DNA from: a virus
Taxonomy: Duplodnaviria; Heunggongvirae; Uroviricota; Caudoviricetes
Reading direction: 5' to 3' (one strand)
Length of the DNA: 39,308 nt
IMG/VR virus record: IMGVR_UViG_2541047861_000010
Span: 1 to 39,308 of that record
In this document: in pieces, positions 1 to 32,470 of the stretch
How the letters are laid out: each line of letters opens with the position of its first letter
How positions within the stretch are numbered: position 1 is the stretch's first letter
Notes under the pieces: generated by a model
What the model saw: the letters and a program-made list of their open reading frames with translations, nothing else
Database searches by the model: none
What the model was told of the DNA's origin: nothing
Translations under genes and position numbers: made by a program

Positions 1-2109
1 TTACACCATACTGTTAACCTGGCCGGGTAATTCGCTAGCTGGAATACGAAAGGTATACCAGGCATAACGACAGCGTTTCCACAGGCTGGAGAAATGGAGA
101 TGATAAAGGAAATCTGCAATAATTTCGTTATCTGGATATAAAGACTCGGCAAAATGTGTCCAGCGCGCACTGAGTTTCATGTTAAACAGTTTTTCATCTT
201 CTTTGTTACCATACAGGCGCGACAAAGTAATCATTGCTTCGAGCGTACCTTTATTCGCTTCTTCTTGTACCTGTTGGAGGTGCAAATGAGCAAGTGAGAG
301 TTCTTTCACCTCAAAGATATTAAGTAAAAAAAGCCCCCATGCTTTTTCATGTCCAGCTTCATGAGCCAGAAATAAATTGTCAAGGAGATTTTTTTCATAA
401 ATAGCCCGTGTTTCTTTAGAAATTTCTTGTTTATTTAGTGCCTGGTAGCAGATAGCAATGCTAAAATAAATATTTTGTAGATCTTGTTGATGTTCGCTAT
501 AACCATAATTTTTTACCAGTGGATAAGATACCGAGCTATGGAAATTTAGGTCATCTTGAAGTATTTTAAGTGCCCGTCGAAAATACTCCAAAGCTGTAGA
601 TGGTTCATAAGGTAATTTTGTATTGTCTTCCTTATCCAAATATTCAAGAGCAACTAAATTTAATGCGGCAGGAATATTTCTTTGCTTACCAATTGTCGCA
701 AGCGGAATGAAATAATCAGAAAGGTCAAACCAACTCAAATCTTTTATTGCCGACCGCCAATTATGATTGTATTTAATGTCACTAGCTTTTTCCAGCCAAG
801 CATCGCCCTGCCCTTCATCTTTTTCAAAACCCAAAATACCCTCTCGCTGGAAAAACCCCCTATAAATAACAGGTGTAGCATAAGTTGTATTCTGTGAATT
901 TTGGCAGATAAAATTATATATCCAGAATGAATCTGGATAATAACTTAATGCAAATTTTATCGCGTACGCAGTGTAATAATTATTGAGCTTCATGTCTTCC
1001 ATCACCGCTCGCTGTATACAGCACCACAACTTATCGTGATCGTTCTGCTTGTTATAGCAGGCAAGTAACCACTCTAGGGCATTATGGCGACATTCCTGAA
1101 ATTGTGCGTACTGAGCAATATTCTCTGCTAAGTCGATTGCATATTGTTGCTCCTCGGGCGCAATGTCCTCAATGCTGACATCTCGGTAATCATCCCACCA
1201 AAGTAAGAGATCCATATAGTCATGTTCTTCGGTAGATAAGTGCTTACAGGTTACTGAATCCAGCAATTCGGAAATTTCTTTATGCGACCCTCCCCAGCGT
1301 GGCATTCGAAATGGTATATATTCAACAAAAGGATAAAAAGTGTGAGGAAAAATAGTCAGACAAACAGAAAGCCAATATTTTTGCCCACCATCATCATCAT
1401 ACTCAGGAAGTATATTGGGGCGAGGCAAAACGGGGCATATTGCATGCTCAAACGAAAGTCCGGAATACGCCATCAACGCTTCCACTTCTTGCGGGGAGCG
1501 GCGGTGATAATTTTTCAGTGCGATCATTAATGGTATTCCTGCGACACTATCACCGTTAAGGTGTGCCGCCAGCCAGGCTGGCTGACCAAATACTTTTGAG
1601 TTGGTGCTGGTAAGTAATGCAGCCATCCATTGTCGTGGGTCACAATCAATTGCTTTAAGTGTAGCGATGACCATTTGTTCATTACATGCACCAGCACAAA
1701 GCCACATTGCATGTGTGGTATCATTTGCCCAGCCATAACTGCGATATAACCATGCACGGTGATTCCAGTATTGTGCTTCGGCAAGCCAGGCATGTGTAGA
1801 ATGAGGTCTTGCTTGCTGCCAGGTTTTAATGAGTCTTAAACCTTCTGTTCCGGCATCAACTAGCGTGTTCATATCATAAAAATAGTTGCACATTTGGGTC
1901 CAGGATAAAAAATAGCGCTTTTCAGCCTGACGAGAAGTGAAACTCTCCTGTAATACCTGGTTATAAATTTCATCTAGTTCCTGATAACGTTTTTCTTGTA
2001 ACATATAAGGAATATTTGCGATTTGCCATTTTCTCTCAAGAGTATTAAGTGGCATTTTTTGGTCACACATCTTTTGCATTGCACTGAGTAAACGAGCATC
2101 CTGTTCCAT
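1..2109 (-). CDS. Hypothetical cytoplasmic protein, 702 aa, Trp/Tyr-rich; last gene of an AT-rich three-gene operon
   Basis: Full ORF 1-2148; start placed at internal ATG 2107-2109 (MEQDARLL) because AAGGA sits 6 nt upstream and this avoids overlap with the upstream gene. Stop codon is at window bases 1-3. No hydrophobic N-terminus. No family recognised from memory. Confidence 0.6.
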   Translation of the reverse strand: MEQDARLLSAMQKMCDQKMPLNTLERKWQIANIPYMLQEKRYQELDEIYNQVLQESFTSRQAEKRYFLSWTQMCNYFYDMNTLVDAGTEGLRLIKTWQQARPHSTHAWLAEAQYWNHRAWLYRSYGWANDTTHAMWLCAGACNEQMVIATLKAIDCDPRQWMAALLTSTNSKVFGQPAWLAAHLNGDSVAGIPLMIALKNYHRRSPQEVEALMAYSGLSFEHAICPVLPRPNILPEYDDDGGQKYWLSVCLTIFPHTFYPFVEYIPFRMPRWGGSHKEISELLDSVTCKHLSTEEHDYMDLLLWWDDYRDVSIEDIAPEEQQYAIDLAENIAQYAQFQECRHNALEWLLACYNKQNDHDKLWCCIQRAVMEDMKLNNYYTAYAIKFALSYYPDSFWIYNFICQNSQNTTYATPVIYRGFFQREGILGFEKDEGQGDAWLEKASDIKYNHNWRSAIKDLSWFDLSDYFIPLATIGKQRNIPAALNLVALEYLDKEDNTKLPYEPSTALEYFRRALKILQDDLNFHSSVSYPLVKNYGYSEHQQDLQNIYFSIAICYQALNKQEISKETRAIYEKNLLDNLFLAHEAGHEKAWGLFLLNIFEVKELSLAHLHLQQVQEEANKGTLEAMITLSRLYGNKEDEKLFNMKLSARWTHFAESLYPDNEIIADFLYHLHFSSLWKRCRYAWYTFRIPASELPGQVNSMV

Positions 2110-2119
2110 AGATATCCTT

Positions 2120-2836
2120 TTAATTAGGTTCAAAAATTTTAAATTCATTCCACGGCAATTTTTTCCAGTTACTGGATGGATCTTTCAACCATGCAGTGAC
2201 TTCCTTTAAATCACGGTTCGCAGTGGCGACGGGGGTATCGTATATCATTAACCATTTTTGTCGGGCGCGAACATAAGCACTGGCATAATCTTCCCATGAA
2301 GCGAAACAATCTTGTGCTCTTTGAGCATTCAGTAATAACACTATCCAGGCCTGGTTTTCATCGCACCAGCCTAAACCGGCGATGCAACGAGTTAAAAAAG
2401 CAGTGCGCATACAGTCAAACGCCAGCCCATCCAGAACCTGGCCTTGTGCTGCCAGTTGTTCGTAAAAATCATGTGGAGAATTACCAAGCCCTGTAGCCCA
2501 GCGCTGTAATATAACGCCAATTTGTTGACGGAAATCTTCGTTGCTTTGGTAAGTTTCTGTTCCTAGCTCTTGTTTAACCTGTAGTGCAAGTTGTTGACGC
2601 TTATCATCAGTCAACTTTAAATCTAACGTGAAGCCATTTACTGACAGTCCATTACGACGAGCAACTATATCACCAATTGCTAATGCCCACTTACGTCTCT
2701 TTGTTGCTCGTCTTTTGTCCTTGATTAGATCCTTTTCTTTTTCTTTAGCAATAAAAGCATCGATTTGTGGTTTGTTTTTTTTGTATCTATAGATAAAAAT
2801 AAATATTGCGACCAGGAGAACAATGATAAGACTCAT
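2120..2836 (-). CDS. Hypothetical membrane-anchored protein, 238 aa, single N-terminal hydrophobic helix
   Basis: ORF with ATG start; N-terminus SLIIVLLVAIFIFIYRY followed by KKNK looks like a signal anchor. Start overlaps stop of upstream gene (TAATG). Possibly DUF1266-like, unverified. Confidence 0.6.
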   Translation of the reverse strand: MSLIIVLLVAIFIFIYRYKKNKPQIDAFIAKEKEKDLIKDKRRATKRRKWALAIGDIVARRNGLSVNGFTLDLKLTDDKRQQLALQVKQELGTETYQSNEDFRQQIGVILQRWATGLGNSPHDFYEQLAAQGQVLDGLAFDCMRTAFLTRCIAGLGWCDENQAWIVLLLNAQRAQDCFASWEDYASAYVRARQKWLMIYDTPVATANRDLKEVTAWLKDPSSNWKKLPWNEFKIFEPN

Positions 2837-4050
2837 TATTTTTCAACCTCTGACAGGGGTAAGTAATGAGATGTCTGTAATGTCAAACTCTCTATCTCAA
2901 AGGAAATGTTGCTGATATTTTGACCTGCAAATTGCGGATGCCACTCAGCGCCAGGGAATAACATTTCCGCAGAAGTAGCAACTATAGGGTCAATAGCATT
3001 AAGATAATGTAACTTATCAGGTGCGCTGTGTAACAGTAACCACTGCAACTCCACTGAAGGATTTGTAAAATGTTCTAATAAATGAAAGTTATTATGTAGT
3101 ACGCTTAGTAAAAAACTGGTTTCGTATACTTCCGTTACATATTTCCACCCCTGATATTCAGGTGTATTTTCATAAACAATACCCATACCTTCACAATCAC
3201 TATGTCGAACTGCTTGTGGTGATAATAGTTGCAAAAGAGACAAAACATCGTCCGCATATTTTTTAACTGGATGACGATTTTGCTTACCTTTTATTTGATC
3301 AATTTCAAGTGAATCACCAACAACATTGAGAGCAATAGTAACATGAGGAATATTATTATTATCACGCAAACTGAATAACCGTAATTTATGTTGCTCAATT
3401 TGATTTGCATAATACTCACCATAACCACCGGTAAGATTTTTTCGATCATCAAACTGGCCTACGCAATGTTGCATATGCCATGATTCATAAGCCATTTCAC
3501 GACGAAGGTTCGAATGACTGGCATCAAACTCAACAATTTTTCCGTCTGGCACATCAAGTATTGACTTTACAGTATTTTGTTCACTCGGCTGCCACCCTTT
3601 CTCGCGTCGTTGAAGCATCTTTTCATGCTCTTCTTCACGCATTCTGAACGCAACGTAGCAGGTTATGCGCTGTAGTTTTGATTCCAGACGGGTACCACAT
3701 TTCCTGGAAAGAAATTCCACCAACTCCCGTTCTTTGGTTAATATTTGTTGATGATCGGTTTCGATATAATAAAGTGTCGCAGTTGATACTGAGGCAGTAT
3801 TAAACTTCGATACCAGCCATTCCGGGATTACATCATCATTTTTATTAAACAGTGAATATTCTGCAAGCGAGTTAATTTGTTGCACCATTGGAAAGTCACT
3901 AATTAGCCATCGATAAAAATGGTTGAGTAACCATTTTTGGATGGTCTCATTATCCTGGCGAAACAGACTTCTTTGCAAAATTGCTGTTTTTACTTCCGGG
4001 GCATTAATTACATCCCTTGCATTATAATTCTGGTGAATATTTCCAGTCAT
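2836..4050 (-). CDS. Hypothetical protein, 404 aa; first gene of AT-rich three-gene operon
   Basis: ORF with ATG start at 4048-4050. Hand-counted GC of a 60-nt sample in this island is about 32 percent, versus about 60 percent in a prophage structural-gene sample (23161-23220). No confident domain assignment. Confidence 0.6.
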   Translation of the reverse strand: MTGNIHQNYNARDVINAPEVKTAILQRSLFRQDNETIQKWLLNHFYRWLISDFPMVQQINSLAEYSLFNKNDDVIPEWLVSKFNTASVSTATLYYIETDHQQILTKERELVEFLSRKCGTRLESKLQRITCYVAFRMREEEHEKMLQRREKGWQPSEQNTVKSILDVPDGKIVEFDASHSNLRREMAYESWHMQHCVGQFDDRKNLTGGYGEYYANQIEQHKLRLFSLRDNNNIPHVTIALNVVGDSLEIDQIKGKQNRHPVKKYADDVLSLLQLLSPQAVRHSDCEGMGIVYENTPEYQGWKYVTEVYETSFLLSVLHNNFHLLEHFTNPSVELQWLLLHSAPDKLHYLNAIDPIVATSAEMLFPGAEWHPQFAGQNISNISFEIESLTLQTSHYLPLSEVEK

Positions 4051-12774: not shown

Positions 12775-12870
12775 CCGTTTAACTCCGTGGTTAATGGGTG
12801 CAACTATTTTCTGTTGGGCAGTACATGAGACGCTATTTGACCTGGCTGGTCAGTGGATGAAACAACAGAT

Positions 12871-12897
12871 AAAGAAAAGGCGGGCAATCCGCCCGCC
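12871..12897 (-). terminator. Rho-independent terminator after tail-fibre operon gene G
   Basis: Hairpin GGCGGGC-AATCC-GCCCGCC with a T-rich tract on the minus strand (AAAGAAAA on plus). Confidence 0.5.
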
Positions 12898-12902
12898 TGT
12901 AT

Positions 12903-13430
12903 TTATTGTGGTAGCTCCGGCCATTCAGGATTTGCAGGATCCACACGACTGACCAGAACGCTGTAGCGTTCCCATGCCTCCAGTCGGCTGCGCTCCTCAT
13001 CTGTTGCCATATTCAGCCTGACAGCGCGCTCCAGCGGCAAAATCACGGATTCAGCTTCGGAAAGCAAAGCTGCCTTTTTTGACTCCGCCAGTTGCTGCTG
13101 TTCGTCTGCCGTATAAATCCGCTTAATCACGGCACCGTCCTTAAACATCCATTTACCTGAGTCATCAGCTCGTCGGTTGGCGGTAATATCAGGGACTTCA
13201 ACGACGCTGAACCCCTCTGGATTAAGCGTTGATGCATCTTTGGTAATGGCGACAATAATATTATTCTCATCGTAAACAATCTTTATTGTGTCTTCCTGAA
13301 AATGCTTTACCTCTTCATACCAGTTTTTTCCATCCTCTGAAAATAACCAGATAACGTCGAATTTTTTTGTTAGTTGATATTGTTCAATGGTTTTCGGATT
13401 TCCTGACCTTATATTTTTTAAATGCTGCAT
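12903..13430 (-). CDS. G: Tail fibre assembly protein gpG (175 aa), composition-mosaic
   Basis: 175 aa in the P2 G position; the N-terminal coding part is visibly AT-rich while the C-terminal part is GC-rich. Confidence 0.85.
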
Positions 13431-13433
13431 AAT

Positions 13434-16214
13434 TTACACCTGTGCGACGTTATACCATGTGCCATTGATGTATTTTTGTATCGGTCTGAAGATGGCTTCA
13501 TCATCGCCATCAACTTCACCAATAATTCTTAATCCGGTAAGTGTGTGTCCGGCCATCTCATAACGCCCGCCACGCGCCATCAATTGAACAACACGTGTTC
13601 CCAGGCGAACATCCATCACATAACGCCCGTCGAAATTACCGTAGTTACTTGGCACAACTTGTCCGGCAACAGTTAATCCATGGCCAATAGTGACTCCACC
13701 AGTGGAATTCTGAATATAGAATGGCCTTAAACTACTCCATCCCCCCATACTGTCACCGGAGTTGGTCAACATGAAATGGGTGAAATTACCATCATTTCGG
13801 ATAAAGAATCCATAGTTCCCACATACGATGCGATAACCGTTTGCTGACCTTGAAACAACTTCCCCATCAACAGTTAAACCGCCTGTAATAGTGCCACCGG
13901 ATATCGGTAAAGCACCAACATCACCAGCGGATGGTTTATGTGCTGTCGTATAAAGCTGTGCCCATCCAGACCACTGAGCGTCATCTGTATCCCGCCTTGA
14001 ACGAATATATGCTGGTGCATGAGCACCGCTGGTTCCACTCCAGCCGATAAGTAACTCACCTTCTCCGGTTGCGGATACCCCCGTAAGATGAAGCACATTG
14101 CCATAGGCATAAGGGTAGCCATTGTTATATGCCTCATACATCTGAATACCAGGCACCCCCTTCTCACTCCCGCTTAATGCAGCAACGCGATTCCTGGATA
14201 CCAGCGTATTAATATTGATATTGCCAGAACCATCAAATTTCACGCCGTTAATTGTCCTTGCCGTTTTCAGCTTTGTAGCTGTAGCCGCATTGCCGGACAG
14301 TTCGCCTGAAAGACCGGCGCTGAAGGTTTGTTTCGCCGCCCATGTCTGAGCTTCGTCGATAATTGGCACACGTCTTGTCGTGATCGTGCGGCTTCCCGGA
14401 TTTCCTGAAATACGCACCATAAAAAAGCGGTAGTTGGCTTTACTTACAGTGCTGCGCCATACATGCATTGAGCGCCCCGTACCGGAATCATCACTCGGAC
14501 CAACTGCGATGTTTATCAGGTTGCCATCAATGACGCCCCAGTCCATACCGTCGGGAATGTGGGTCATGTTATCAAGCCGAACGGTTATCAGACTGCCCGG
14601 CACAAAGTCGTAGGTCTGCCAGTCCAGGCTGGAGAGTTTTGCCACAGCGCCACCGATGCCCAGATTCAGAGGCAACGAAAAGGAGTTATATACTTCTCGC
14701 CATTCGGTCCATTTGCTCCCGGCGTAGACGCGCTCAAAAGTGCGTCCCTGTGTGGTTTCTGATTTCCCTGTGGTTGTGTAACGCTGCCAGACAGACACAC
14801 CATCAAAACGTCTGATTACTTCCAGTATCCCAAGTAGTGTCGCGCCAACGGTGTCCAGCATCGGACCGTTTGTTGCCTTTCCTGTAACACTGTAAATACC
14901 GGGGTCGGTTAGAACATTTAAATCACCCTCGTAATAACGACTCTCTGACTGATGACCGATTCTTAACCACGGTTCCCACTGCGGATTTGATGCATCCCAG
15001 CTTGCCGCAAGGCAGCGGACATACATATTTCCACGGCGAGTGGTATAACGTTGCGTTCTTCCATAATTCCCGCCTTCGAGGATCTCAAGCGTCCCCTGAG
15101 CAAAGCCGCCTTCCTCTGGATAATTGCGTTCATATGAAGCTATAGCCGAGCTACTGTTACGCCATAAACCAAGATGCTCGGCGGCTCCAAGCGTATTCAG
15201 GTCTATAGTCGTACTCAAAGGGCGGGTAGCAGATTGAGTGTGACGCCATACGCCCCACGGACCATCAGTGCCATTCCACTTATTGGCGAGTTTACGCATG
15301 TATACATTGCCGTCTCTCGTGGTAAAGCGTTGAGTACCTGCAAAATTGCCGGCAGCAAAAACCTCAAGCACACCGACAGCATTATCTTCCGGGAAATTTT
15401 TCTCCAGTGTTGCGTTAGTTGAGGTAGCTTTAGACCAGATCCCCAGATAAGCCTTAACGGGACCAAATGTATTCAGGTCGGCATCAACCGGCATTTCGCC
15501 ATTGTTTTTCATAAACGTCAGGCTGGTAACGCCAACATTGTCCAGAAAAGCTGATTTATCCTGGATATCTGCACCGTTCTGATTTTTCGCCAGACGTGAA
15601 TTTGCGTTGTCATTTGCTGCCTTGACCGCTTTTGGCGTTGCCGCCAATGACTCACTGGTGCTGTTTGTTGCACTGCTTAACTGAGTAAAACCTTTTTCTG
15701 TCAGCGTGGCGTCAGGATGGCGGCGGGACTGCTCATGCTCTGCGATTTTGTCATCGACATAATCCTGAGTCGCCATCACCGTGCTGGCATCAATACTCAG
15801 TTCAACGGACGCCACGTTGCTGAGAATAATAACCATGCGACAGGTCTGCGCACGCCCGGAGCCTTCAGCCAGTTCTGGCTTATAGCTTTCTGCCATGTTG
15901 GATACCGCAATCAGTGTTCCGGCATCGTCATACAGACCAAGCTCACGCATCCAGAAGCCGCCCACTTCGGGCGGTACAACCAGTTCAGCCACGATATAGT
16001 TTTTATTCTTATTATCCACGCTGACTTTATTCAGAGCGTGACGCCAGACCTCATGCACCAGTTTCGTCTGACCGGCATCCGGCACCGGCAATTTGCCATT
16101 ACCATCACCCACGGCCATTGCAGACAGGTTTACTTTTTTCCCGCCGGGGACAGTGGCGGCTGCCAGCTTTGCGGCTCCGGCAGTAGTGATAACGGTTTTA
16201 AATTTCGTGCTCAT
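13434..16214 (-). CDS. H: Tail fibre protein gpH (926 aa) with P2-like N-terminus and divergent longer C-terminal receptor-binding region
   Basis: N-terminus [25 protein letters not shown]... resembles P2 H (about 669 aa as I recall); C-terminus ends ...[17 protein letters not shown], a tail-fibre tip motif. Confidence 0.85.
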
Positions 16215-16224
16215 TGTTTCTCAC

Positions 16225-16755
16225 TTATCCGGGATAAACAGTAATAACATCACCATCACAGAGCACACCGCCTGTATACAGATAGCCGGGAATGTCCTGG
16301 ATAATGTTCAGGCCGATAAGGTGGCGACTTGCGGGTTTGGCATCGGCAATCAGCCGTTCCATTTCCAGATACATCTCCTCCGTGATGCCGCTTTCCAGTA
16401 CGCCGATATCAAGGCGGAAGGTTCCGGGCGGGTCGTTTGTCTCCCACCATTCCTTTACGTTAATGAGATAGCCGAGCGGCTCCACCACACGCCGGATTGC
16501 GCCTATCGTGCCTTTATGACAGTGGATGAAATAGGCATCGCGGATAACGGCGCGTTTTGTCGCTTCCGGCCACTTTTCATCCCAGCGGTCAACCGAAAAT
16601 GACCACGCCAGCCACGGCAGCAGATTTGCCGGACAGGTGTCCGGGTTCCACAGCTCACGAATACTGACCGGCGTTTTTTCAATTTCCGCACAGGCTTTTG
16701 CGGCAGCGACTTCAAGCGGTGATGAGCCGGTCGGCAGCAGGCGCGAATCACTCAT
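16225..16755 (-). CDS. I: Baseplate protein gpI (176 aa)
   Basis: Length and synteny match P2 I. Confidence 0.9.
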   Translation of the reverse strand: MSDSRLLPTGSSPLEVAAAKACAEIEKTPVSIRELWNPDTCPANLLPWLAWSFSVDRWDEKWPEATKRAVIRDAYFIHCHKGTIGAIRRVVEPLGYLINVKEWWETNDPPGTFRLDIGVLESGITEEMYLEMERLIADAKPASRHLIGLNIIQDIPGYLYTGGVLCDGDVITVYPG

Positions 16756-18008: not shown

Positions 18009-18646
18009 TTTGTCCCCTGTGTCCAGTTGTCTCCTGACTTAACACCACCGTGACCGTGGTCATCCACCTGAACGCCGTTAGACGTGAATTTCCCGTCGGT
18101 ATGCTCGATGTTGCCGTGCATCTTCCCGCCCTTCTGCACTTCCAGCGTGCCGGTAGTCAGTTTGTTAGTGCAGACCACTTCCGGTGTGTCCAGGGTGATG
18201 CGGGTTGACGCTTTCACCATGACCACCGGCACCGTGGCAGTAACAGAATCAGAAGCCGTCACGCTGGCCGTTTTAATTCCGCTTACCGTGAGTGCACTGG
18301 TTTCAGGTTCATACTCAATCACCGCCCCGTCAGGGAAACGGATATGCAGGGCATCCGCCGACGCAGACGGCGCGGGGTTATCGCCGGAATAAATCCCCGG
18401 CAGAACGAACGCCGTGTCGAGTTCACCGCCCACGGCCAGAATCAGCACCTGTTCCCCCACGGAAGGTGCCCACCATGTGCGCGAACGCCCGGCACGATGG
18501 GTCAGCCACTGAAGCCAGTCGGTGCACATGCCGCCGGTCTGCACACGGCAGCGACCGGCGTTAAGGTCGGTTTCGACGACAAGACCGGTGCGGATCATAT
18601 TGCGCAGTGCGCGCGCGAGTTCCTGGATATTTGATAGTGTGCTCAT
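18005..18646 (-). CDS. V: Baseplate spike protein gpV (213 aa)
   Basis: Start set at MSTLSNIQELARALRNMIRTG... by recalled similarity to the P2 V N-terminus; the longer upstream extension in the ORF track has no RBS. Confidence 0.85.
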   Translation of the reverse strand: MSTLSNIQELARALRNMIRTGLVVETDLNAGRCRVQTGGMCTDWLQWLTHRAGRSRTWWAPSVGEQVLILAVGGELDTAFVLPGIYSGDNPAPSASADALHIRFPDGAVIEYEPETSALTVSGIKTASVTASDSVTATVPVVMVKASTRITLDTPEVVCTNKLTTGTLEVQKGGKMHGNIEHTDGKFTSNGVQVDDHGHGGVKSGDNWTQGTK

Positions 18647-18692
18647 ATGACAATAATGGGGAACATATGCTCGAAAAACTATTGCAACCCGT

Positions 18693-18710
18693 TGTATCAT
18701 TTTCGGCACA
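18693..18710. promoter_or_regulatory. Candidate Ogr-box dyad TGT-N12-ACA in the V/moron divergent intergenic region
   Basis: TGTATCATTTTCGGCACA read directly; it has the recalled P2 late-promoter dyad form. Its spacing to the V start does not fit the canonical -55 position, so the assignment is tentative. Confidence 0.3.
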
Positions 18711-18729
18711 ACCAAGAAGGAGCCGAAGC

Positions 18730-19473
18730 ATGGATAAATATCAAATCTGGGAAAAACAAAAAGACACCATCGCCCATAAAGAATATTTAAAAATTTCCGA
18801 CACCAATTTACTTGGACATATACACATTGCCAATTATGAGGTGATTCAAAGTGAATTAAGCAAATTCAACTCTCCTGAAATTGTACTCCACTACTCACTT
18901 AATAGAAATGAATTAAAAAAAGAGAGCATAAATATATCAAGACATTTTCTCAACTATATCTCCTCAGCATTATCACTTAGAGATTCAACTCGAAATCTAC
19001 ATAAAATTAATGTGTTAAATATTGATAACATTACCAATAAATCCAGAGAAATCATCAATGAAGAATTTTTAAAAAATCCAATCATCAAATTAATGGAGGA
19101 TTTAAGAAACATCCTAACCCATCAAAAAATGATCTCCCCATTAATATCATCATTTATGCACCTCCAGAAAAAAATAAACATACACGGATTTGCATTTAAG
19201 ATTGAAACCATACTGGAGAATGACCGACTTTCTGGTAAATCAAAAGAATACCTGAAGTCAACAGAACAAAAAAATTTATTCATCTTGCCGATAATAGAGG
19301 AATACCAATACACAACTCTTAAATACCAGCACTGGCTTTTAGCTTGTATCCACAATGCTCATCAAAATACATACCCAGAATACTGGGAAGCAAGAAAAAA
19401 CATAATGGACGTCTGGGGTGGAGATATCCAACTAATACCTGAAGAGAGTGCCCTCACTTATTTGACCAGATAA
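18730..19473 (+). CDS. Hypothetical protein (247 aa), AT-rich moron at the P2 orf30 position between V and S
   Basis: ATG at 18730 with AAGGAG 10 nt upstream; hand-counted GC of a 60-nt sample is about 22 percent; opposite strand to all flanking tail genes. No recognisable domain. Confidence 0.7.
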   Translation: MDKYQIWEKQKDTIAHKEYLKISDTNLLGHIHIANYEVIQSELSKFNSPEIVLHYSLNRNELKKESINISRHFLNYISSALSLRDSTRNLHKINVLNIDNITNKSREIINEEFLKNPIIKLMEDLRNILTHQKMISPLISSFMHLQKKINIHGFAFKIETILENDRLSGKSKEYLKSTEQKNLFILPIIEEYQYTTLKYQHWLLACIHNAHQNTYPEYWEARKNIMDVWGGDIQLIPEESALTYLTR

Positions 19474-29182: not shown

Positions 29183-30250
29183 TCATTTCTTAGCTTTCAC
29201 AACCGGATGCGCGCGATCATGTCCACCGCCACGATGCTTAGAAAATATAACCTTTTCATTAGTAAAAGGTTTTTGGCCATAGACACTATCATAGTGGAAA
29301 AAGACGTTCGGAAGATGAGGCACACGGATGAATCCATACTTCACTCTAGTATCACCGATGACCCCAAAAACCCTTGTACTTACTGGGTAGCATAGTTCAC
29401 CACAACGCATCACTAATTCATCTGCTGTTGGGCGTTCAGAAGGTTCCAATTTTAAACAATCTTCTATAAGTTTAATTATTTCATTTGCCAATGGCGCATA
29501 CTGTCTATTTGAAAATATAAAGTCAGGGTAAGGAACATGCGTGCCAGAAAGTATTTTTGGTATAGCCATATAACCAATACCAAAAGGGTATTTTCCAGTA
29601 AGAATCCTGAACATCATCGCACCCAATGCCCAAATATCTGTAGGTTTCGAAACCTTACCTTGACTCTGTATGATTTCCGGTGCCATATATGGCAAAGCCC
29701 CGATAGCCGTTTGCGAAGAACTAATTGAATCTTGACCATTTCTTGCAGCCTCATCAATTTCATCTCCGGCCATCTTTGAAATGCCGAAATCCGTAATTTT
29801 TATCTCTGTAGCATTGATACCACCGCCTACCATTATATTTGAAGGTTTGAGGTCCCGGTGTATGACGTCAACATGATGCGAAGCAGACAGAGCTTTAGCT
29901 AAATTATGAAATATTTTAGCAGTTAAATATGGATCAACACTTGAATAAGTGTCTAAAATAGCCTTATCCAAGTCAACTCCATCAATAAATTCCTCCGTTA
30001 AAAACTCTCTACCCTCATCATCAATGAAGTAATCTAAGGTTTTAGCCACATTAGGATGATTAACCCTTGATGCTAATATTGCACTTCTATGAAACCTTTT
30101 TTCAGCAGATTTATTTTTGGGAGTTTTGAGAGCCACATGCCTCGAGAGAATATTATCCATTGCCAAATAAACTTTTTGCATACCGCCTTCACCAATCTCC
30201 CTCAATATTGTATATCTGCTAACTTGAATTCCTGGAGTCAGATTTATCAT
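29183..30250 (-). CDS. Hanks-type Ser/Thr protein kinase with C-terminal cold-shock-like (OB-fold) domain (355 aa)
   Basis: Kinase motifs present: G-loop GEGGMQKV, VALK lysine, HRDLKPSN, DFG, APE. C-terminal 60 aa (VFGVIGDTRVKYGFIRVPHLPNVFFHYDSVYG...EKVIF) aligns by eye to the CspA pattern. AT-rich; start overlaps upstream stop (ATGA). Confidence 0.85.
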   Translation of the reverse strand: MINLTPGIQVSRYTILREIGEGGMQKVYLAMDNILSRHVALKTPKNKSAEKRFHRSAILASRVNHPNVAKTLDYFIDDEGREFLTEEFIDGVDLDKAILDTYSSVDPYLTAKIFHNLAKALSASHHVDVIHRDLKPSNIMVGGGINATEIKITDFGISKMAGDEIDEAARNGQDSISSSQTAIGALPYMAPEIIQSQGKVSKPTDIWALGAMMFRILTGKYPFGIGYMAIPKILSGTHVPYPDFIFSNRQYAPLANEIIKLIEDCLKLEPSERPTADELVMRCGELCYPVSTRVFGVIGDTRVKYGFIRVPHLPNVFFHYDSVYGQKPFTNEKVIFSKHRGGGHDRAHPVVKAKK

Positions 30251-31311
30251 AACACCACCTCCGGATGGGAAAGGTCAAATGTAATGAAGACCCGCTCTTT
30301 TCTTGGCCGAGAAGTCTCTCCCAGAATAATAACACATGAATCAGGCAAAATATTATATTGCTTTGCAGCTATATTATTCACATACACCTCACCACTTAAA
30401 CTCGATATATAAAACTCTGAACCAGAATATTTCACCTCAATAGTCCCGACCCCTGAATTATTAAAAGCCGCAGATTTATTTGTTGAAGAAATGATGACGG
30501 GTGGAGTGTTATCAGAGATTAACAATGCTCTATGAGAGTTGTAGAGAACGAATTTTTTTAGAGTCTGACACACATCAGCCATATCAGGTCTCTCACAAGG
30601 ATTCGTATCTAAACATTGGAAAAGCAATTCTTTTACCTGAGTTGGTAACTGTATATTAGAATTATCAAAAGGATTAGACAATAATTTTTTGGGTAAAACT
30701 CTCATTTCCGGTGGTAGTGGGGTCTTAGCCAAAAACATGGCCGTTACAGCAAAAGCATATGTATCTATGGATTTTGTAAACGCTACTTGATGTAAAAATA
30801 ATTCAGGTGCAGCATATGTTGGGGTTCCTTTAAAACCTATTGTATTAGCTTCATCAACATTTCTAGATAGTCCGAAGTCATAAATCTTCACTACTCCCTC
30901 AGAATCAATTTTCATGTTCCCAGGCTTGATATCCCTATGAATAATATCATGAGAATGTATCTCAGAAATACCCGAAGATATTTGCCACAAAATTTTAATC
31001 AGATCTTCAGAATTTAATATGCGATCCTCTACTTCCAATAATGAAGGTCCGTCAACATACTCTTCGACTATAGCAATTCCTTTACCTTGATAATTAATAA
31101 CATCATAAAGCTCTACTACATGTTTTGATCTTAATTTCATCAATGCTGATAACTCATCCATCATTCGAGGAGAATCATCAGGATTACTTATGGACTTTAT
31201 AGCGACAAATCTTTCGAGGTGAGTATCCAAGCATTTGATCACGCAACCAAATCCTCCCGAAGCCTCTTCTTCAGTCCTCTTATATCTTGCAGGGAGAGTA
31301 AAATTAGTCAT
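30247..31311 (-). CDS. Hanks-type Ser/Thr protein kinase with C-terminal FHA-like domain (354 aa)
   Basis: Kinase motifs present: GGFGCV, VAIK, HRDIKPGN, DFG, APE. C-terminal segment (SSLSGEVYVNNIAAKQYNILPDSCVIILGE) resembles the FHA signature. RBS AAGGAG 7 nt upstream. Confidence 0.85.
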   Translation of the reverse strand: MTNFTLPARYKRTEEEASGGFGCVIKCLDTHLERFVAIKSISNPDDSPRMMDELSALMKLRSKHVVELYDVINYQGKGIAIVEEYVDGPSLLEVEDRILNSEDLIKILWQISSGISEIHSHDIIHRDIKPGNMKIDSEGVVKIYDFGLSRNVDEANTIGFKGTPTYAAPELFLHQVAFTKSIDTYAFAVTAMFLAKTPLPPEMRVLPKKLLSNPFDNSNIQLPTQVKELLFQCLDTNPCERPDMADVCQTLKKFVLYNSHRALLISDNTPPVIISSTNKSAAFNNSGVGTIEVKYSGSEFYISSLSGEVYVNNIAAKQYNILPDSCVIILGETSRPRKERVFITFDLSHPEVVL

Positions 31312-32470
31312 CTTTATCTCCTTTAGTGGAGTTTTTCTCAGAGAATGAAATATCTAACTGTGAAATATTATCTAACTTATCATTATTGTTAGCTTCGATA
31401 ACATTCCTTCCCTCATCACTCTTTATATTACTATTTTTTTTCTTTGTACGTGATTTCCTTTTCGATACATTTTTTTTGTTAGAAATTTCATTACTGCATT
31501 CTAACTCAGTAACTTTTCTATCAATAACATTTTCAACCGTAGCTGAGTTAGGTATATCTAACGGCGCAGGTTGCACGCTAATTACTTTCATCTCACCAAA
31601 AGGATCCCATAAATTAATTACATCCCCAGATGATACATCCAAAGCACTTAGGATGTTCGAAATCTCAACTACCGCAATCGACGCATTATCAAATCCACCA
31701 AACCAACTAGCTAGATCTATAACTCTTTTAGCGAACACTCCAGTATTATTGGAGTGAGCATATAATTTTCTCAAATTATTACTGTCAATGGTATGAGCAC
31801 CATCTGAAGTTAATGCAACCACCCCAGGTACGAGCCGAATATCGTGAAAATGTATCTCAAGAACACCATCAAGACCTATAAACTGTACTAACTCGCCACC
31901 TAACCTAGAATCAATAACACCTGAGTCACTACCAAGATGCTCATTATATTTCTTTGCCAATACAGCTAATGTATCATCCTCACTAATTTGTTTTATGTGT
32001 TCAGCATTAATGGAATATATGCGACTATCCCCGACATTTATTGCTGTAATGTTATCGGAGTCATCTACAGCTAAGGCAGATAACGTAGCCCCACCGTTCC
32101 CATTATATACTTTCAAAACCGATTCATTTGCTTTTAAAACGGCGATTTCAAGACATTGTCTAATTGGCAAGCCTGAGTGTTTAATTATCTCGGTAAAAAA
32201 AGATGATACGGTCAATGAAGCAGCATTCGCTCCCCCTTCCATCCCCCCCATACCATCTGCTAAAGCGATGACAATCATGTCCTTATTCTTACTAAAAGGA
32301 CGAAATTTTAATACAGCTACCCGGTCTTGGTTCTCTTTCCTAACTAAACCTATGTCTGTAGCAATAGCTGCAGGTAGCATAGATACTCTTCGTACAGATG
32401 AAGAGATATTTTTTCTATGCAGCCAAGCGTGTATCTGTTCATGAAGGATCTCGTAAGAGTCTCGACTCAC
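31304..32470 (-). CDS. PP2C-family Ser/Thr protein phosphatase with Lys-rich disordered C-terminal tail (388 aa)
   Basis: PP2C motifs ALADGMGG, VGDSR and TSDG read in the translation. GTG start with GAGGAGG 4 nt upstream; 3' end overlaps the downstream kinase start by 8 nt (ATGACTAA). Confidence 0.8.
   Translation of the reverse strand: MSRDSYEILHEQIHAWLHRKNISSSVRRVSMLPAAIATDIGLVRKENQDRVAVLKFRPFSKNKDMIVIALADGMGGMEGGANAASLTVSSFFTEIIKHSGLPIRQCLEIAVLKANESVLKVYNGNGGATLSALAVDDSDNITAINVGDSRIYSINAEHIKQISEDDTLAVLAKKYNEHLGSDSGVIDSRLGGELVQFIGLDGVLEIHFHDIRLVPGVVALTSDGAHTIDSNNLRKLYAHSNNTGVFAKRVIDLASWFGGFDNASIAVVEISNILSALDVSSGDVINLWDPFGEMKVISVQPAPLDIPNSATVENVIDRKVTELECSNEISNKKNVSKRKSRTKKKNSNIKSDEGRNVIEANNNDKLDNISQLDISFSEKNSTKGDKDD

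What the first reader, a model, noticed from the sequence alone, without database searches (positions are those of the whole stretch)
13434..14500. Enlarged tail fibre H with a replaced C-terminal receptor-binding region and a composition-mosaic G
H is 926 aa, about 250 aa longer than P2 H as I recall it. The N-terminus is P2-like but the C-terminal part is different and ends in the ...[12 protein letters not shown] tip motif. The adjacent assembly gene G switches from AT-rich (N-terminal part) to GC-rich (C-terminal part). Together these indicate a swapped host-range cassette. The boundary at 14500 is approximate.
Basis: partly seen in the sequence, partly recalled or inferred. Interest (0 to 1): 0.35.

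Follow-up and report, generated by a model that had tools for sequence, protein, structure and literature searches.

The report
Mosaic long P2-type tail fibre
This is the tail-fibre gene H and its chaperone gene G of a P2-like prophage of E. coli; H is a patchwork of domains known from other phage fibres, but its receptor-binding tip and chaperone are the ordinary P2/P1 type, so the finding is real but unremarkable.

Summary
The measurements hold. H (13434-16214, minus strand) is an intact 926-aa ORF, 257 aa longer than P2 H (669 aa). Its N-terminus is P2-like. G switches from about 33% to about 54% GC.

The extra and non-P2 sequence is the middle of the fibre (aa 208-831), not the tip. The last 69 aa, including [12 protein letters not shown], are 93% identical to P2 H and 91% to P1 S. 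They match 29 of 31 residues of the host-range region mapped experimentally in phage P88. G is 91% identical to P2 G over its full length and 92% to P1 U, and P2 shows the same GC switch.

The middle holds three knob-like repeats, with pyocin fibres as the best fold match, shared with Yersinia phage L-413C and many coliphages. This long form occurs in 276 of 5426 complete E. coli genomes, against 104 for the P2-type middle.

What is specific to this allele is a block from about aa 663 to 913. It resembles P1 Sv, Mu S and T4 gp34, and replaces the block found in the closest long-H phages. Its right edge seems to lie inside G, near the GC switch.

The identical protein is already in nr. The mosaic architecture was described for L-413C in 2008. 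Interest is low.

The parts
13434..16214 (-). Gene H, tail fibre, 926 aa, intact ORF
   Evidence: ORF list. Pfam PF12571, PF03406 and PF21446 all match. The identical 926-aa protein is in nr as P0001. It lies between I (16225-16755) and G in a V-W-J-I-H-G operon.
15762..16214 (-). H aa 1-151: tail-collar fibre N-terminal domain, inferred baseplate attachment
   Evidence: PF12571, E 2.5e-57. aa 1-207 are 84% identical to P2 H and 98-100% to vB_YpM_50 and L-413C.
15582..15707 (-). H aa 170-211: phage tail fibre repeat
   Evidence: PF03406, E 6e-21. Aligns with Mu S 111-172 at 63% identity.
15528..15551 (-). H aa 222-229 (SAFLDNVG): end of the constant N-terminal part. This is the position equivalent to the Mu gix site and the 186 'Mu-like inversion crossover site', which is degenerate here.
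   Evidence: Homology to 186 K (1-273) and to Mu S (111-172) ends at aa 229. 186 has an annotated crossover site at that point. No gix/cix match at up to 3 mismatches, and the best match to the 186 site has 9 of 26 mismatches.
14655..15521 (-). H aa 232-520: three tandem knob-like repeats of about 95 aa (pyocin-knob-like)
   Evidence: Repeats 1 and 2 are 44% identical, E 2e-24; repeat 3 is weaker. The AF2 model has pLDDT 70-89 over this stretch. The best Foldseek hits are R1/R2 pyocin fibres 6CL5/6CL6, E 1e-6. NCBI names close homologues 'pyocin knob domain-containing protein'.
14229..14654 (-). H aa 521-662: beta-rich shaft segment shared by long-H fibres, ending in the [13 protein letters not shown] junction motif
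   Evidence: 95-99% identical in other long-H alleles and 77% in L-413C. The model is low-confidence here. The 96% nucleotide identity to vB_YpM_50 stops at H nt 1985.
13911..14228 (-). H aa 663-768: allele-specific distal shaft domain, P1 Sv-like, ending in the [11 protein letters not shown] junction motif
   Evidence: 68% identical to P1 S but only 32% to vB_YpM_50 and L-413C. H 614-757 is 69% identical to P1 S 464-607. The EC556-type H shares everything up to aa 768 and then carries a different tip.
13644..13910 (-). H aa 769-857: T4 gp34 / Mu S-type trimerisation domain
   Evidence: PF21446, E 5.5e-26, 91.8 bits against a cutoff of 27. PDB sequence matches: 5YVQ Mu S 262-344 and 4UXE T4 gp34. 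H 782-858 is 60% identical to Mu S 268-344.
13434..13643 (-). H aa 858-926 plus stop: distal tip of the P2 H / P1 S / P88 type, the inferred receptor-binding and Tfa-binding end
   Evidence: 93% identical to P2 H, 91% to P1 S and 93% to P88, but 77-80% to vB_YpM_50 and L-413C and 35% to the EC556 type. Aligns with the C-terminus of Mu S in 5YVQ.
13491..13583 (-). H aa 878-908: equivalent of the P88 host-range region HR2
   Evidence: 29/31 identical to P88 716-746, with L730 and E744 both conserved. The host-range experiments are in PMC5285337.
12903..13430 (-). Gene G, tail fibre assembly protein (Tfa), 175 aa
   Evidence: PF02413, E 2.4e-34. 91% identical to P2 G, 92% to P1 U and 89% to Mu U, each over the full length.
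13152..13430 (-). G aa 1-93: N-terminal domain; the AT-rich stretch (32-36% GC) covers window 13221-13490
   Evidence: phrog_24494 matches aa 1-93 only. This stretch is 75-92% identical to all comparators, with no close donor.
12903..13130 (-). G aa 101-175: C-terminal Tfa domain shared with other Tfa families, 48-61% GC
   Evidence: phrog_3792, phrog_188 and phrog_105 match only aa 101-175. 87-97% nucleotide identity to vB_YpM_50 G.
12878..12898 (-). Terminator-like hairpin directly after G, the likely end of the V-G operon
   Evidence: 9-bp stem with 7 GC pairs followed by a T run. Three overlapping terminator-like calls at this one hairpin (two on the - strand, one on the + strand), against 0.3 expected in shuffles. 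P2 has an annotated V-operon terminator after G.

Best explanation
H and G are the tail-fibre gene and fibre-chaperone gene of an intact P2-like (Peduovirus) prophage, integrated between yegR and yegQ in E. coli NCTC11151.

H is a long, L-413C-type mosaic fibre made of seven parts:
1. A P2-family N-terminal collar domain that docks on the baseplate.
2. A fibre repeat that ends where Mu and 186 have their inversion crossover site.
3. Three pyocin-knob-like domains.
4. A shared beta-rich shaft.
5. A P1 Sv-like domain.
6. A T4 gp34 / Mu S-type trimerisation domain.
7. A distal tip of the P2 H / P1 S / P88 type.

G is the matching P2 G / P1 U / Mu U-type assembly protein.

Inferred mechanism: G binds the C-terminal tip and starts trimerisation there. 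The tip then recognises an LPS-core sugar, as in P2, P1 and Mu G(+). The knob and shaft modules set reach and possibly add weak glycan contacts.

The mosaic arose by homologous exchange at short conserved junction motifs ([23 protein letters not shown], GNFDxRYV). The AT-rich stretch that spans the end of H and the first ~70 codons of G marks the horizontally mobile tip-plus-chaperone unit. P2 itself carries the same unit.
For: Shown directly:
- Gene order and identity of the prophage.
- Domain matches PF12571, PF03406, PF21446 and PF02413.
- Sequence matches to solved Mu S (5YVQ) and T4 gp34 (4UXE).
- Segment identities against 14 fibres.
- The tip is 93% identical to P2 H and G is 91% identical to P2 G.
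- The equivalent of P88 HR2 is 29/31 identical (with PMC5285337).
- P2 has the same GC dip.
- H is 65% identical to L-413C H and 82% to vB_YpM_50 H, collinear over the full length.
- Breakpoints fall at H nt 1985/1986 and at about 2572-2740. G's 3' half is 87-97% identical to vB_YpM_50.
- The sister allele in EC556 is identical up to aa 768 and then has a Mu S'-type tip.
- The knob fold has pLDDT 70-89 and its top hits are pyocin fibres.
- The knob module is present in 276 of 5426 genomes.

From the literature:
- L-413C H has a P2-like N-terminus (207 aa) and C-terminus with a mosaic middle (PMC7460101).
- The Mu Tfa N-domain binds the fibre tip and its C-domain is conserved (PMC9608196).
- An engineered P2(1-370)-P1 S(446-987) fibre with U works in P2 particles (PMC9942202).
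- Pyocin-knob and gp34 distal domains are recognised mobile fibre domains (bioRxiv 10.1101/2024.10.28.620165).
Against: - No experiment bears on this particular allele. The receptor, the binding of G and the role of the knobs are all inferred.
- The tip plus G is only 86% identical to P2 at the nucleotide level, against 96-98% for the backbone genes W, J, FI and FII. It is the same type as P2's, not the same allele, and 5 of the last 69 residues differ.
- The knob assignment rests on a monomer model with low global TM (0.18-0.24) and has no sequence-level match in Pfam, NCBIfam or PDB.
- Between U and U', the C-terminal half of Tfa is the more divergent one (30/80 identical against 68/95). This does not fit a simple 'variable N, conserved C' rule.
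- RefSeq annotates H as three pseudogene fragments.
Confidence: 0.85

Rival explanations
1. One reading: relative to P2, the C-terminal receptor-binding region of H and the adjoining part of G were replaced as one host-range cassette, giving a new receptor specificity.
For: H differs from P2 H over aa 208-831 and is 257 aa longer. The whole H-G region is less similar to P2 (78-86% nt) than the backbone is (96-98%). Against vB_YpM_50-type relatives, a distal block has indeed been exchanged, with an edge inside G.
Against: The last 69 aa are 93% identical to P2 H, and G is 91% identical to P2 G over its full length. The quoted tip motif is P2's own. P2 has the same GC mosaic. The residues shown to set host range in P88 are conserved here.
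Confidence: 0.1
2. The knob-bearing middle, rather than the tip, is the main specificity determinant. On this reading the three lectin-like knobs bind a surface glycan, so this fibre has a different or dual receptor despite its P2-type tip.
For: The knob alleles vary independently between otherwise near-identical fibres; the third knob ranges from 46% to 100% identity. That pattern is expected for surfaces under host-range selection. The best fold matches are the pyocin fibres, and several lower-ranked Foldseek matches are sugar-binding Photorhabdus lectins.
Against: No binding data exist. The lectin hits are weak (E around 1e-3, TM around 0.15). In P88, host range maps to the tip (PMC5285337). 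In Mu, the Tfa-bound distal end is the part implicated in receptor recognition (PMC9608196).
Confidence: 0.2
3. H is a decayed, non-functional gene, as the RefSeq annotation (three partial pseudogene fragments) implies.
For: PGAP annotates three incomplete fragments over this ORF in NCTC11151.
Against: The 2781-nt ORF is uninterrupted and every domain is complete and collinear with functional phage fibres from L-413C and vB_YpM_50. The identical protein and 97-100% identical variants occur on many contigs, and a 91% sister type occurs on dozens. The rest of the prophage looks complete. The fragments look like an artefact of partial protein-evidence hits.
Confidence: 0.03

Closest known systems
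Yersinia phage L-413C gpH / gpG (913 aa; Garcia et al. 2008, as summarised in PMC7460101)
   Same: Same operon position and same architecture: a P2-like N-terminal 207 aa, a mosaic middle with three knob repeats, a P2-like C-terminus, and a 175-aa G. Collinear at 65% identity over the full length; G is 93% identical.
   Different: The knob alleles are 46-68% identical. aa 663-857 is only 27-32% identical, and L-413C lacks the PF21446 match. The tip is 78% identical, and the HR2-equivalent region differs at many positions.
Yersinia/Escherichia Peduovirus vB_YpM_50-type H (911 aa), the commonest long-H allele
   Same: 96% nucleotide identity over H nt 1-1985 (aa 1-662). G's 3' half is 87-97% identical.
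   Different: H nt 1986 to about 2740 (aa 663 to about 913) is replaced. Here that stretch is P1 Sv-like, then gp34 / Mu S-like, then a P2/P1-type tip.
Phage P2 gpH (669 aa) and gpG
   Same: N-terminal 207 aa are 84% identical, the last 69 aa 93%, and G 91%. The AT-rich stretch across the H tip and the 5' part of G is the same.
   Different: P2 lacks the knob module and the P1 Sv-like and PF21446 segments. Its middle (aa 208-577) has no detectable similarity to this H. P2 carries fun(Z) between G and FI, where this window has only 128 bp.
Phage P1 S (Sv) / U and phage Mu S / U (solved complex 5YVQ)
   Same: H 614-757 is 69% identical to P1 S 464-607. The tip is 91% identical to P1 S. H 782-858 is 60% identical to Mu S 268-344. 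G is 92% identical to P1 U and 89% to Mu U.
   Different: There is no invertible segment, no invertase and no functional gix/cix site. The N-terminal part is P2-family. The Mu S tip itself is only 48% identical.
Engineered P2(1-370)-P1 S/S'(446-987) chimeric fibres (PMC9942202)
   Same: A P2-family N-terminus joined to a P1 Sv-type distal part with a U-type chaperone, shown to work on P2 particles. The window's H is a natural analogue.
   Different: The natural junctions differ, and the knob module is absent from the engineered fibre.

Membership tests
P2-family tail fibre gpH (Peduovirus H) | N-terminal tail-collar fibre domain (PF12571) | tested here: met
   E 2.5e-57 over aa 1-151. aa 1-207 are 84% identical to P2 H.
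P2-family tail fibre gpH (Peduovirus H) | Position in the V-W-J-I-H-G late operon, directly upstream of a Tfa gene | tested here: met
   ORFs and RefSeq annotation; terminator-like hairpin after G.
P2-family tail fibre gpH (Peduovirus H) | Full-length collinearity with P2 H | tested here: not met
   Only aa 1-207 and 832-926 align with P2 H.
L-413C-type long mosaic H | P2-like N- and C-termini flanking a non-P2 mosaic middle, and collinear with L-413C H | tested here: met
   65% identity over 1-926 against 1-913 in a single HSP. The architecture is as described in PMC7460101.
Caudovirales tail fibre assembly protein (Tfa; P2 G / Mu U / P1 U) | PF02413 domain and near full-length identity to G/U | tested here: met
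   E 2.4e-34. 91% identical to P2 G, 92% to P1 U and 89% to Mu U.
Caudovirales tail fibre assembly protein (Tfa; P2 G / Mu U / P1 U) | Binds the fibre's C-terminal tip and is needed for trimer assembly | not testable with these tools
   Inferred from the Mu S-U complex 5YVQ and from PMC9608196.
T4 gp34 C-terminal trimerisation domain (PF21446) | Profile match above the gathering score | tested here: met
   91.8 bits against a cutoff of 27, over aa 757-834. PDB 4UXE and 5NXF match at E about 1e-21.
Pyocin knob domain | Knob fold as in the R1/R2 pyocin fibres | tested here: inconclusive
   The top Foldseek hits are 6CL5 and 6CL6 (E 1e-6, probability 1.0), but TM is 0.18-0.24 for a monomer model with pLDDT 70-89 over the knobs. 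There is no Pfam, NCBIfam or PDB sequence match. NCBI names close homologues 'pyocin knob domain-containing'.
Invertible host-range switch (Mu G / P1 C segment type) | DNA invertase gene and inverted gix/cix sites flanking alternative Sv-U sets | tested here: not met
   No invertase is annotated in the prophage. No gix match at up to 3 mismatches. Best matches to the 186 and P1 sites have 6-9 mismatches. There is a single H-G set.

The most novel reading that the evidence does not exclude
The three independently varying knob domains may be functional lectins that give this fibre a second receptor-binding site. Together with a P1/P2-type LPS-core-binding tip, that would make it a two-step or dual-receptor fibre. 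On this reading the rare combination with a P1 Sv / gp34-like distal shaft, seen in 2 of 5426 complete genomes, is an adaptation to particular O-antigen-bearing hosts such as avian pathogenic strains.
Probability: 0.15. Interest if true: 0.35.

Novelty: new member of a known kind. Interest (0 to 1): 0.12.

Why it matters
Its value is mainly practical. The allele is one more natural example of where P2-family fibres tolerate domain exchange. The junction motifs are [23 protein letters not shown] and GNFDxRYV, and there is a further break inside the chaperone gene. These junctions could guide design of retargeted P2/P4 delivery particles and pyocins.

It also corrects two easy misreadings:
- A longer H does not imply a new receptor-binding tip.
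- The GC mosaic of G is also present in P2 itself, not specific to this allele.

RefSeq currently mis-annotates this intact gene as three pseudogene fragments.

Tried and rejected
- A Mu gix consensus search (up to 3 mismatches) and searches with the 186 and P1 crossover sites found no functional inversion site. An invertible-segment explanation is rejected.
- NCBIfam gave no hit for H, G or the AT-rich ORF.
- A profile search of PDB with the middle-module alignment matched only Mu S and gp34 through the flanking columns and found nothing for the knobs.
- The AF2 monomer model of aa 208-662 was usable only for the knobs. aa 508-662 had pLDDT below 50.
- A first protein query was out of frame.
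- The 'variable N-domain, conserved C-domain' rule for Tfa did not hold between U and U', so I did not use it as an explanation of the GC switch. I report only that other Tfa PHROG families match just aa 101-175.
- The pseudogene reading from RefSeq is rejected, because the ORF is intact and conserved.
- Lambda Stf shares only the 40-aa fibre repeat with this H.
Full report
**What is there.** The window is a P2-like prophage of E. coli, 100% identical to NCTC11151 (NZ_LR134031.1, between yegR and yegQ) and to strain FY26. On the minus strand the late operon reads V, W, J, I (16225-16755), H (13434-16214, 926 aa) and G (12903-13430, 175 aa). A terminator-like hairpin follows at 12878-12898, then the sheath gene FI. 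Pfam places three domains in H: a tail-collar fibre N-terminal domain (aa 1-151), a fibre repeat (170-211) and a T4 gp34-type trimerisation domain (757-834). It places a Caudo_TAP domain in G.

**Checking the observation.** The numbers are right.
- P2 H is 669 aa, so this H is 257 aa longer.
- aa 1-207 are 84% identical to P2 H.
- G has a compositional step: window 13221-13490 is 32-36% GC, and the rest of G is 48-61%.

The statement that the C-terminal part differs from P2 is wrong for the part that matters.
- H 832-926 aligns with P2 H 578-669 at 79%.
- The last 69 aa are 93% identical to P2 H, 91% to P1 S and 93% to P88.
- The motif [12 protein letters not shown] is identical in P2, L-413C and vB_YpM_50, and differs by one residue in P1 S and P88.
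- G is 91% identical to P2 G, 92% to P1 U and 89% to Mu U over all 175 residues.
- P2's own H-G shows the same drop to 37-46% GC and the same recovery within G.

Position 14500 is not a boundary of anything.

**Anatomy of H.** I scored segment identities against 14 fibres.
- aa 1-207 is the P2-family constant part. Homology to 186 K and to Mu S runs on to aa 229 and stops there. At that point Mu has its G-segment crossover and 186 has an annotated 'Mu-like inversion crossover site'. The site is degenerate here and the prophage has no invertase.
- aa 232-520 are three tandem repeats of about 95 aa. Repeats 1 and 2 are 44% identical (E 2e-24); repeat 3 is more distant.
- An AlphaFold2 model of aa 208-662 is confident only over these repeats (pLDDT 70-89). 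Its best structural matches are the R1 and R2 pyocin fibres, 6CL5 and 6CL6 (E 1e-6). The global TM-score is low, as expected for a monomer model of a trimeric fibre.
- NCBI names many close homologues 'pyocin knob domain-containing protein'. I found no sequence-level match to any library, so I treat the knob assignment as likely but not proven.
- aa 521-662 is a shaft segment shared by all long-H alleles.
- aa 663-768 is 68% identical to P1 S in its variable part. aa 769-857 matches Mu S 262-344 and T4 gp34.
- aa 858-926 is the tip.

**How unusual is it?** Not very. L-413C H (913 aa) and vB_YpM_50 H (911 aa) are collinear with this H at 65% and 82% identity. The L-413C architecture was described by Garcia et al. 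2008, as summarised in PMC7460101: a P2-like N-terminal 207 aa and C-terminus around a mosaic middle.

Among 5426 complete E. coli genomes, the knob module is present at 80% coverage or more in 276. The P2-type middle is present in 104. The 'enlarged' form is therefore the commoner one.

The identical 926-aa protein is already in nr. A 924-aa sister type, 91% identical overall and 99-100% identical over aa 521-926, is seen on dozens of contigs.

What is rare is this allele's distal block. Only 2 of 5426 complete genomes carry it whole.

**The real exchange.** Against vB_YpM_50, nucleotide identity is 96% for H nt 1-1985, then nothing alignable until nt 2572. A 60-nt identity scan shows three things:
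- H nt 2620-2739, the equivalent of P88 HR2, is 85-95% identical to P2, P1 and P88 but only 58-72% to vB_YpM_50 and L-413C.
- The 5' 255 nt of G are 75-92% identical to every comparator.
- The 3' half of G is 87-97% identical to vB_YpM_50.

So, relative to its nearest relatives, this allele carries a replaced block from window 14229 to at least about 13476, and perhaps to about 13176 inside G. That lies close to the GC step. The cassette it brought in is of the P2/P1 type.

A sister allele in strain EC556 (840 aa) is 97.7% identical up to aa 768. It then switches to a Mu S'-type tip with a diverged G. This shows that [10 protein letters not shown] is a natural exchange point. The other junctions fall at [13 protein letters not shown] (aa about 650-662) and GNFDxRYV (aa about 860).

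Relative to P2, the backbone genes W, J, FI and FII are 96-98% identical. H nt 1-606 is 78% identical and tip plus G is 86%. The whole H-G region is therefore a divergent allele of the same kind, not P2's own copy.

**How it most likely works.** What is shown is the domain content and homologies above. The rest is inferred from established work on these families:
- The N-terminal domain docks on the baseplate, as seen for Mu gp49 on its wedge protein (PMC11915804).
- G binds the distal C-terminus and nucleates trimer folding, as in the Mu S-U complex 5YVQ (PMC9608196).
- The tip binds an LPS-core sugar. This is the receptor class of P2, P1 and Mu G(+) (partly from my own knowledge; Mu is cited).

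Support for the tip as specificity determinant comes from P88. Swapping aa 716-746 changed its host range, and the abstract of PMC5285337 reports that, among the single substitutions, only those at L730 and E744 altered host range (its Table 2 lists the E744 mutant as unable to infect the original host). The window has 29 of those 31 residues, including both key ones.

Engineered P2(1-370)-P1 S(446-987) fibres with U are functional (PMC9942202). A natural P2-family / P1 Sv-like hybrid is therefore plausible as a working fibre. The role of the knobs is unknown, and their allele-by-allele variation keeps a secondary-binding role open.

On the GC step in G, other Tfa PHROG families match only aa 101-175, and a separate family matches aa 1-93. 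That fits a two-domain chaperone. However, U and U' differ more in the C-terminal half, so I do not claim that the step equals a functional boundary.

**Verdict.** This is a real, intact, mosaic tail-fibre and chaperone pair of a well-known kind. It is a new member of a known kind, already present in databases, and of low interest.

Noticed in passing
window 29183-32470 (-): Three cargo genes sit between the replication gene A and the portal gene Q. Two are Ser/Thr kinases (29183-30250 and 30247-31311) that hit the PADLOC PD-T4-6 and mad6 models at E 1e-50 to 1e-55. The third is a PP2C phosphatase by its RefSeq name (31304-32470), with no PADLOC hit. This is a candidate kinase/phosphatase anti-phage system in a P2 cargo hotspot.
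   Followed up: partly
window 18607-19473 (+): An AT-rich (39% GC) ORF lies opposite to the late genes, between S and V, at the position of P2 orf30. It matches only phrog_12680 (unknown function) and has no Pfam, NCBIfam or PADLOC hit. RefSeq calls a 247-aa hypothetical protein here.
   Followed up: partly
window 13434-16214; L003/L008 (NZ_LR134031.1 1890565-1893345): RefSeq/PGAP annotates the intact 926-aa H ORF as three partial pseudogene fragments ('phage tail protein', 's domain protein', 'phage tail protein'). The identical full-length protein is in nr. This is probably an annotation artefact of the mosaic.
   Followed up: yes
window 15528-15551 (H aa 222-229): Homology to 186 K and to the Mu S constant part ends exactly where Mu has its G-segment crossover and 186 an annotated 'Mu-like inversion crossover site'. 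The DNA site is degenerate here and no invertase is present.
   Followed up: yes
L009 2501-5553 (E. coli EC556, NZ_AP027440.1): A sister H allele (840 aa) is 97.7% identical to the window's H up to aa 768. It then carries a Mu S'-type tip (71% identical to Mu Sv') and a G that is only 75% identical. This is a natural tip-plus-chaperone swap at the KPSxGDxGA motif.
   Followed up: partly
window 12775-12902: Only 128 bp, including a terminator-like hairpin at 12878-12898, separate G from FI. P2 carries the fun(Z) cargo gene at this position, and L-413C and vB_YpM_50 carry other ORFs there.
   Followed up: partly
window 1-4050 (-): Beyond yegQ, the host flank encodes a PcfJ-domain protein, a DUF1266 protein and a DUF4034 protein (RefSeq names). 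This may be a separate small island.
   Followed up: no
H aa 426-520 (window 14655-14937) across alleles: The third knob repeat is the most variable module among otherwise near-identical long-H alleles: 100%, 99%, 75-77%, 59% or 46% identity. This hints at independent exchange or selection on single knobs.
   Followed up: no
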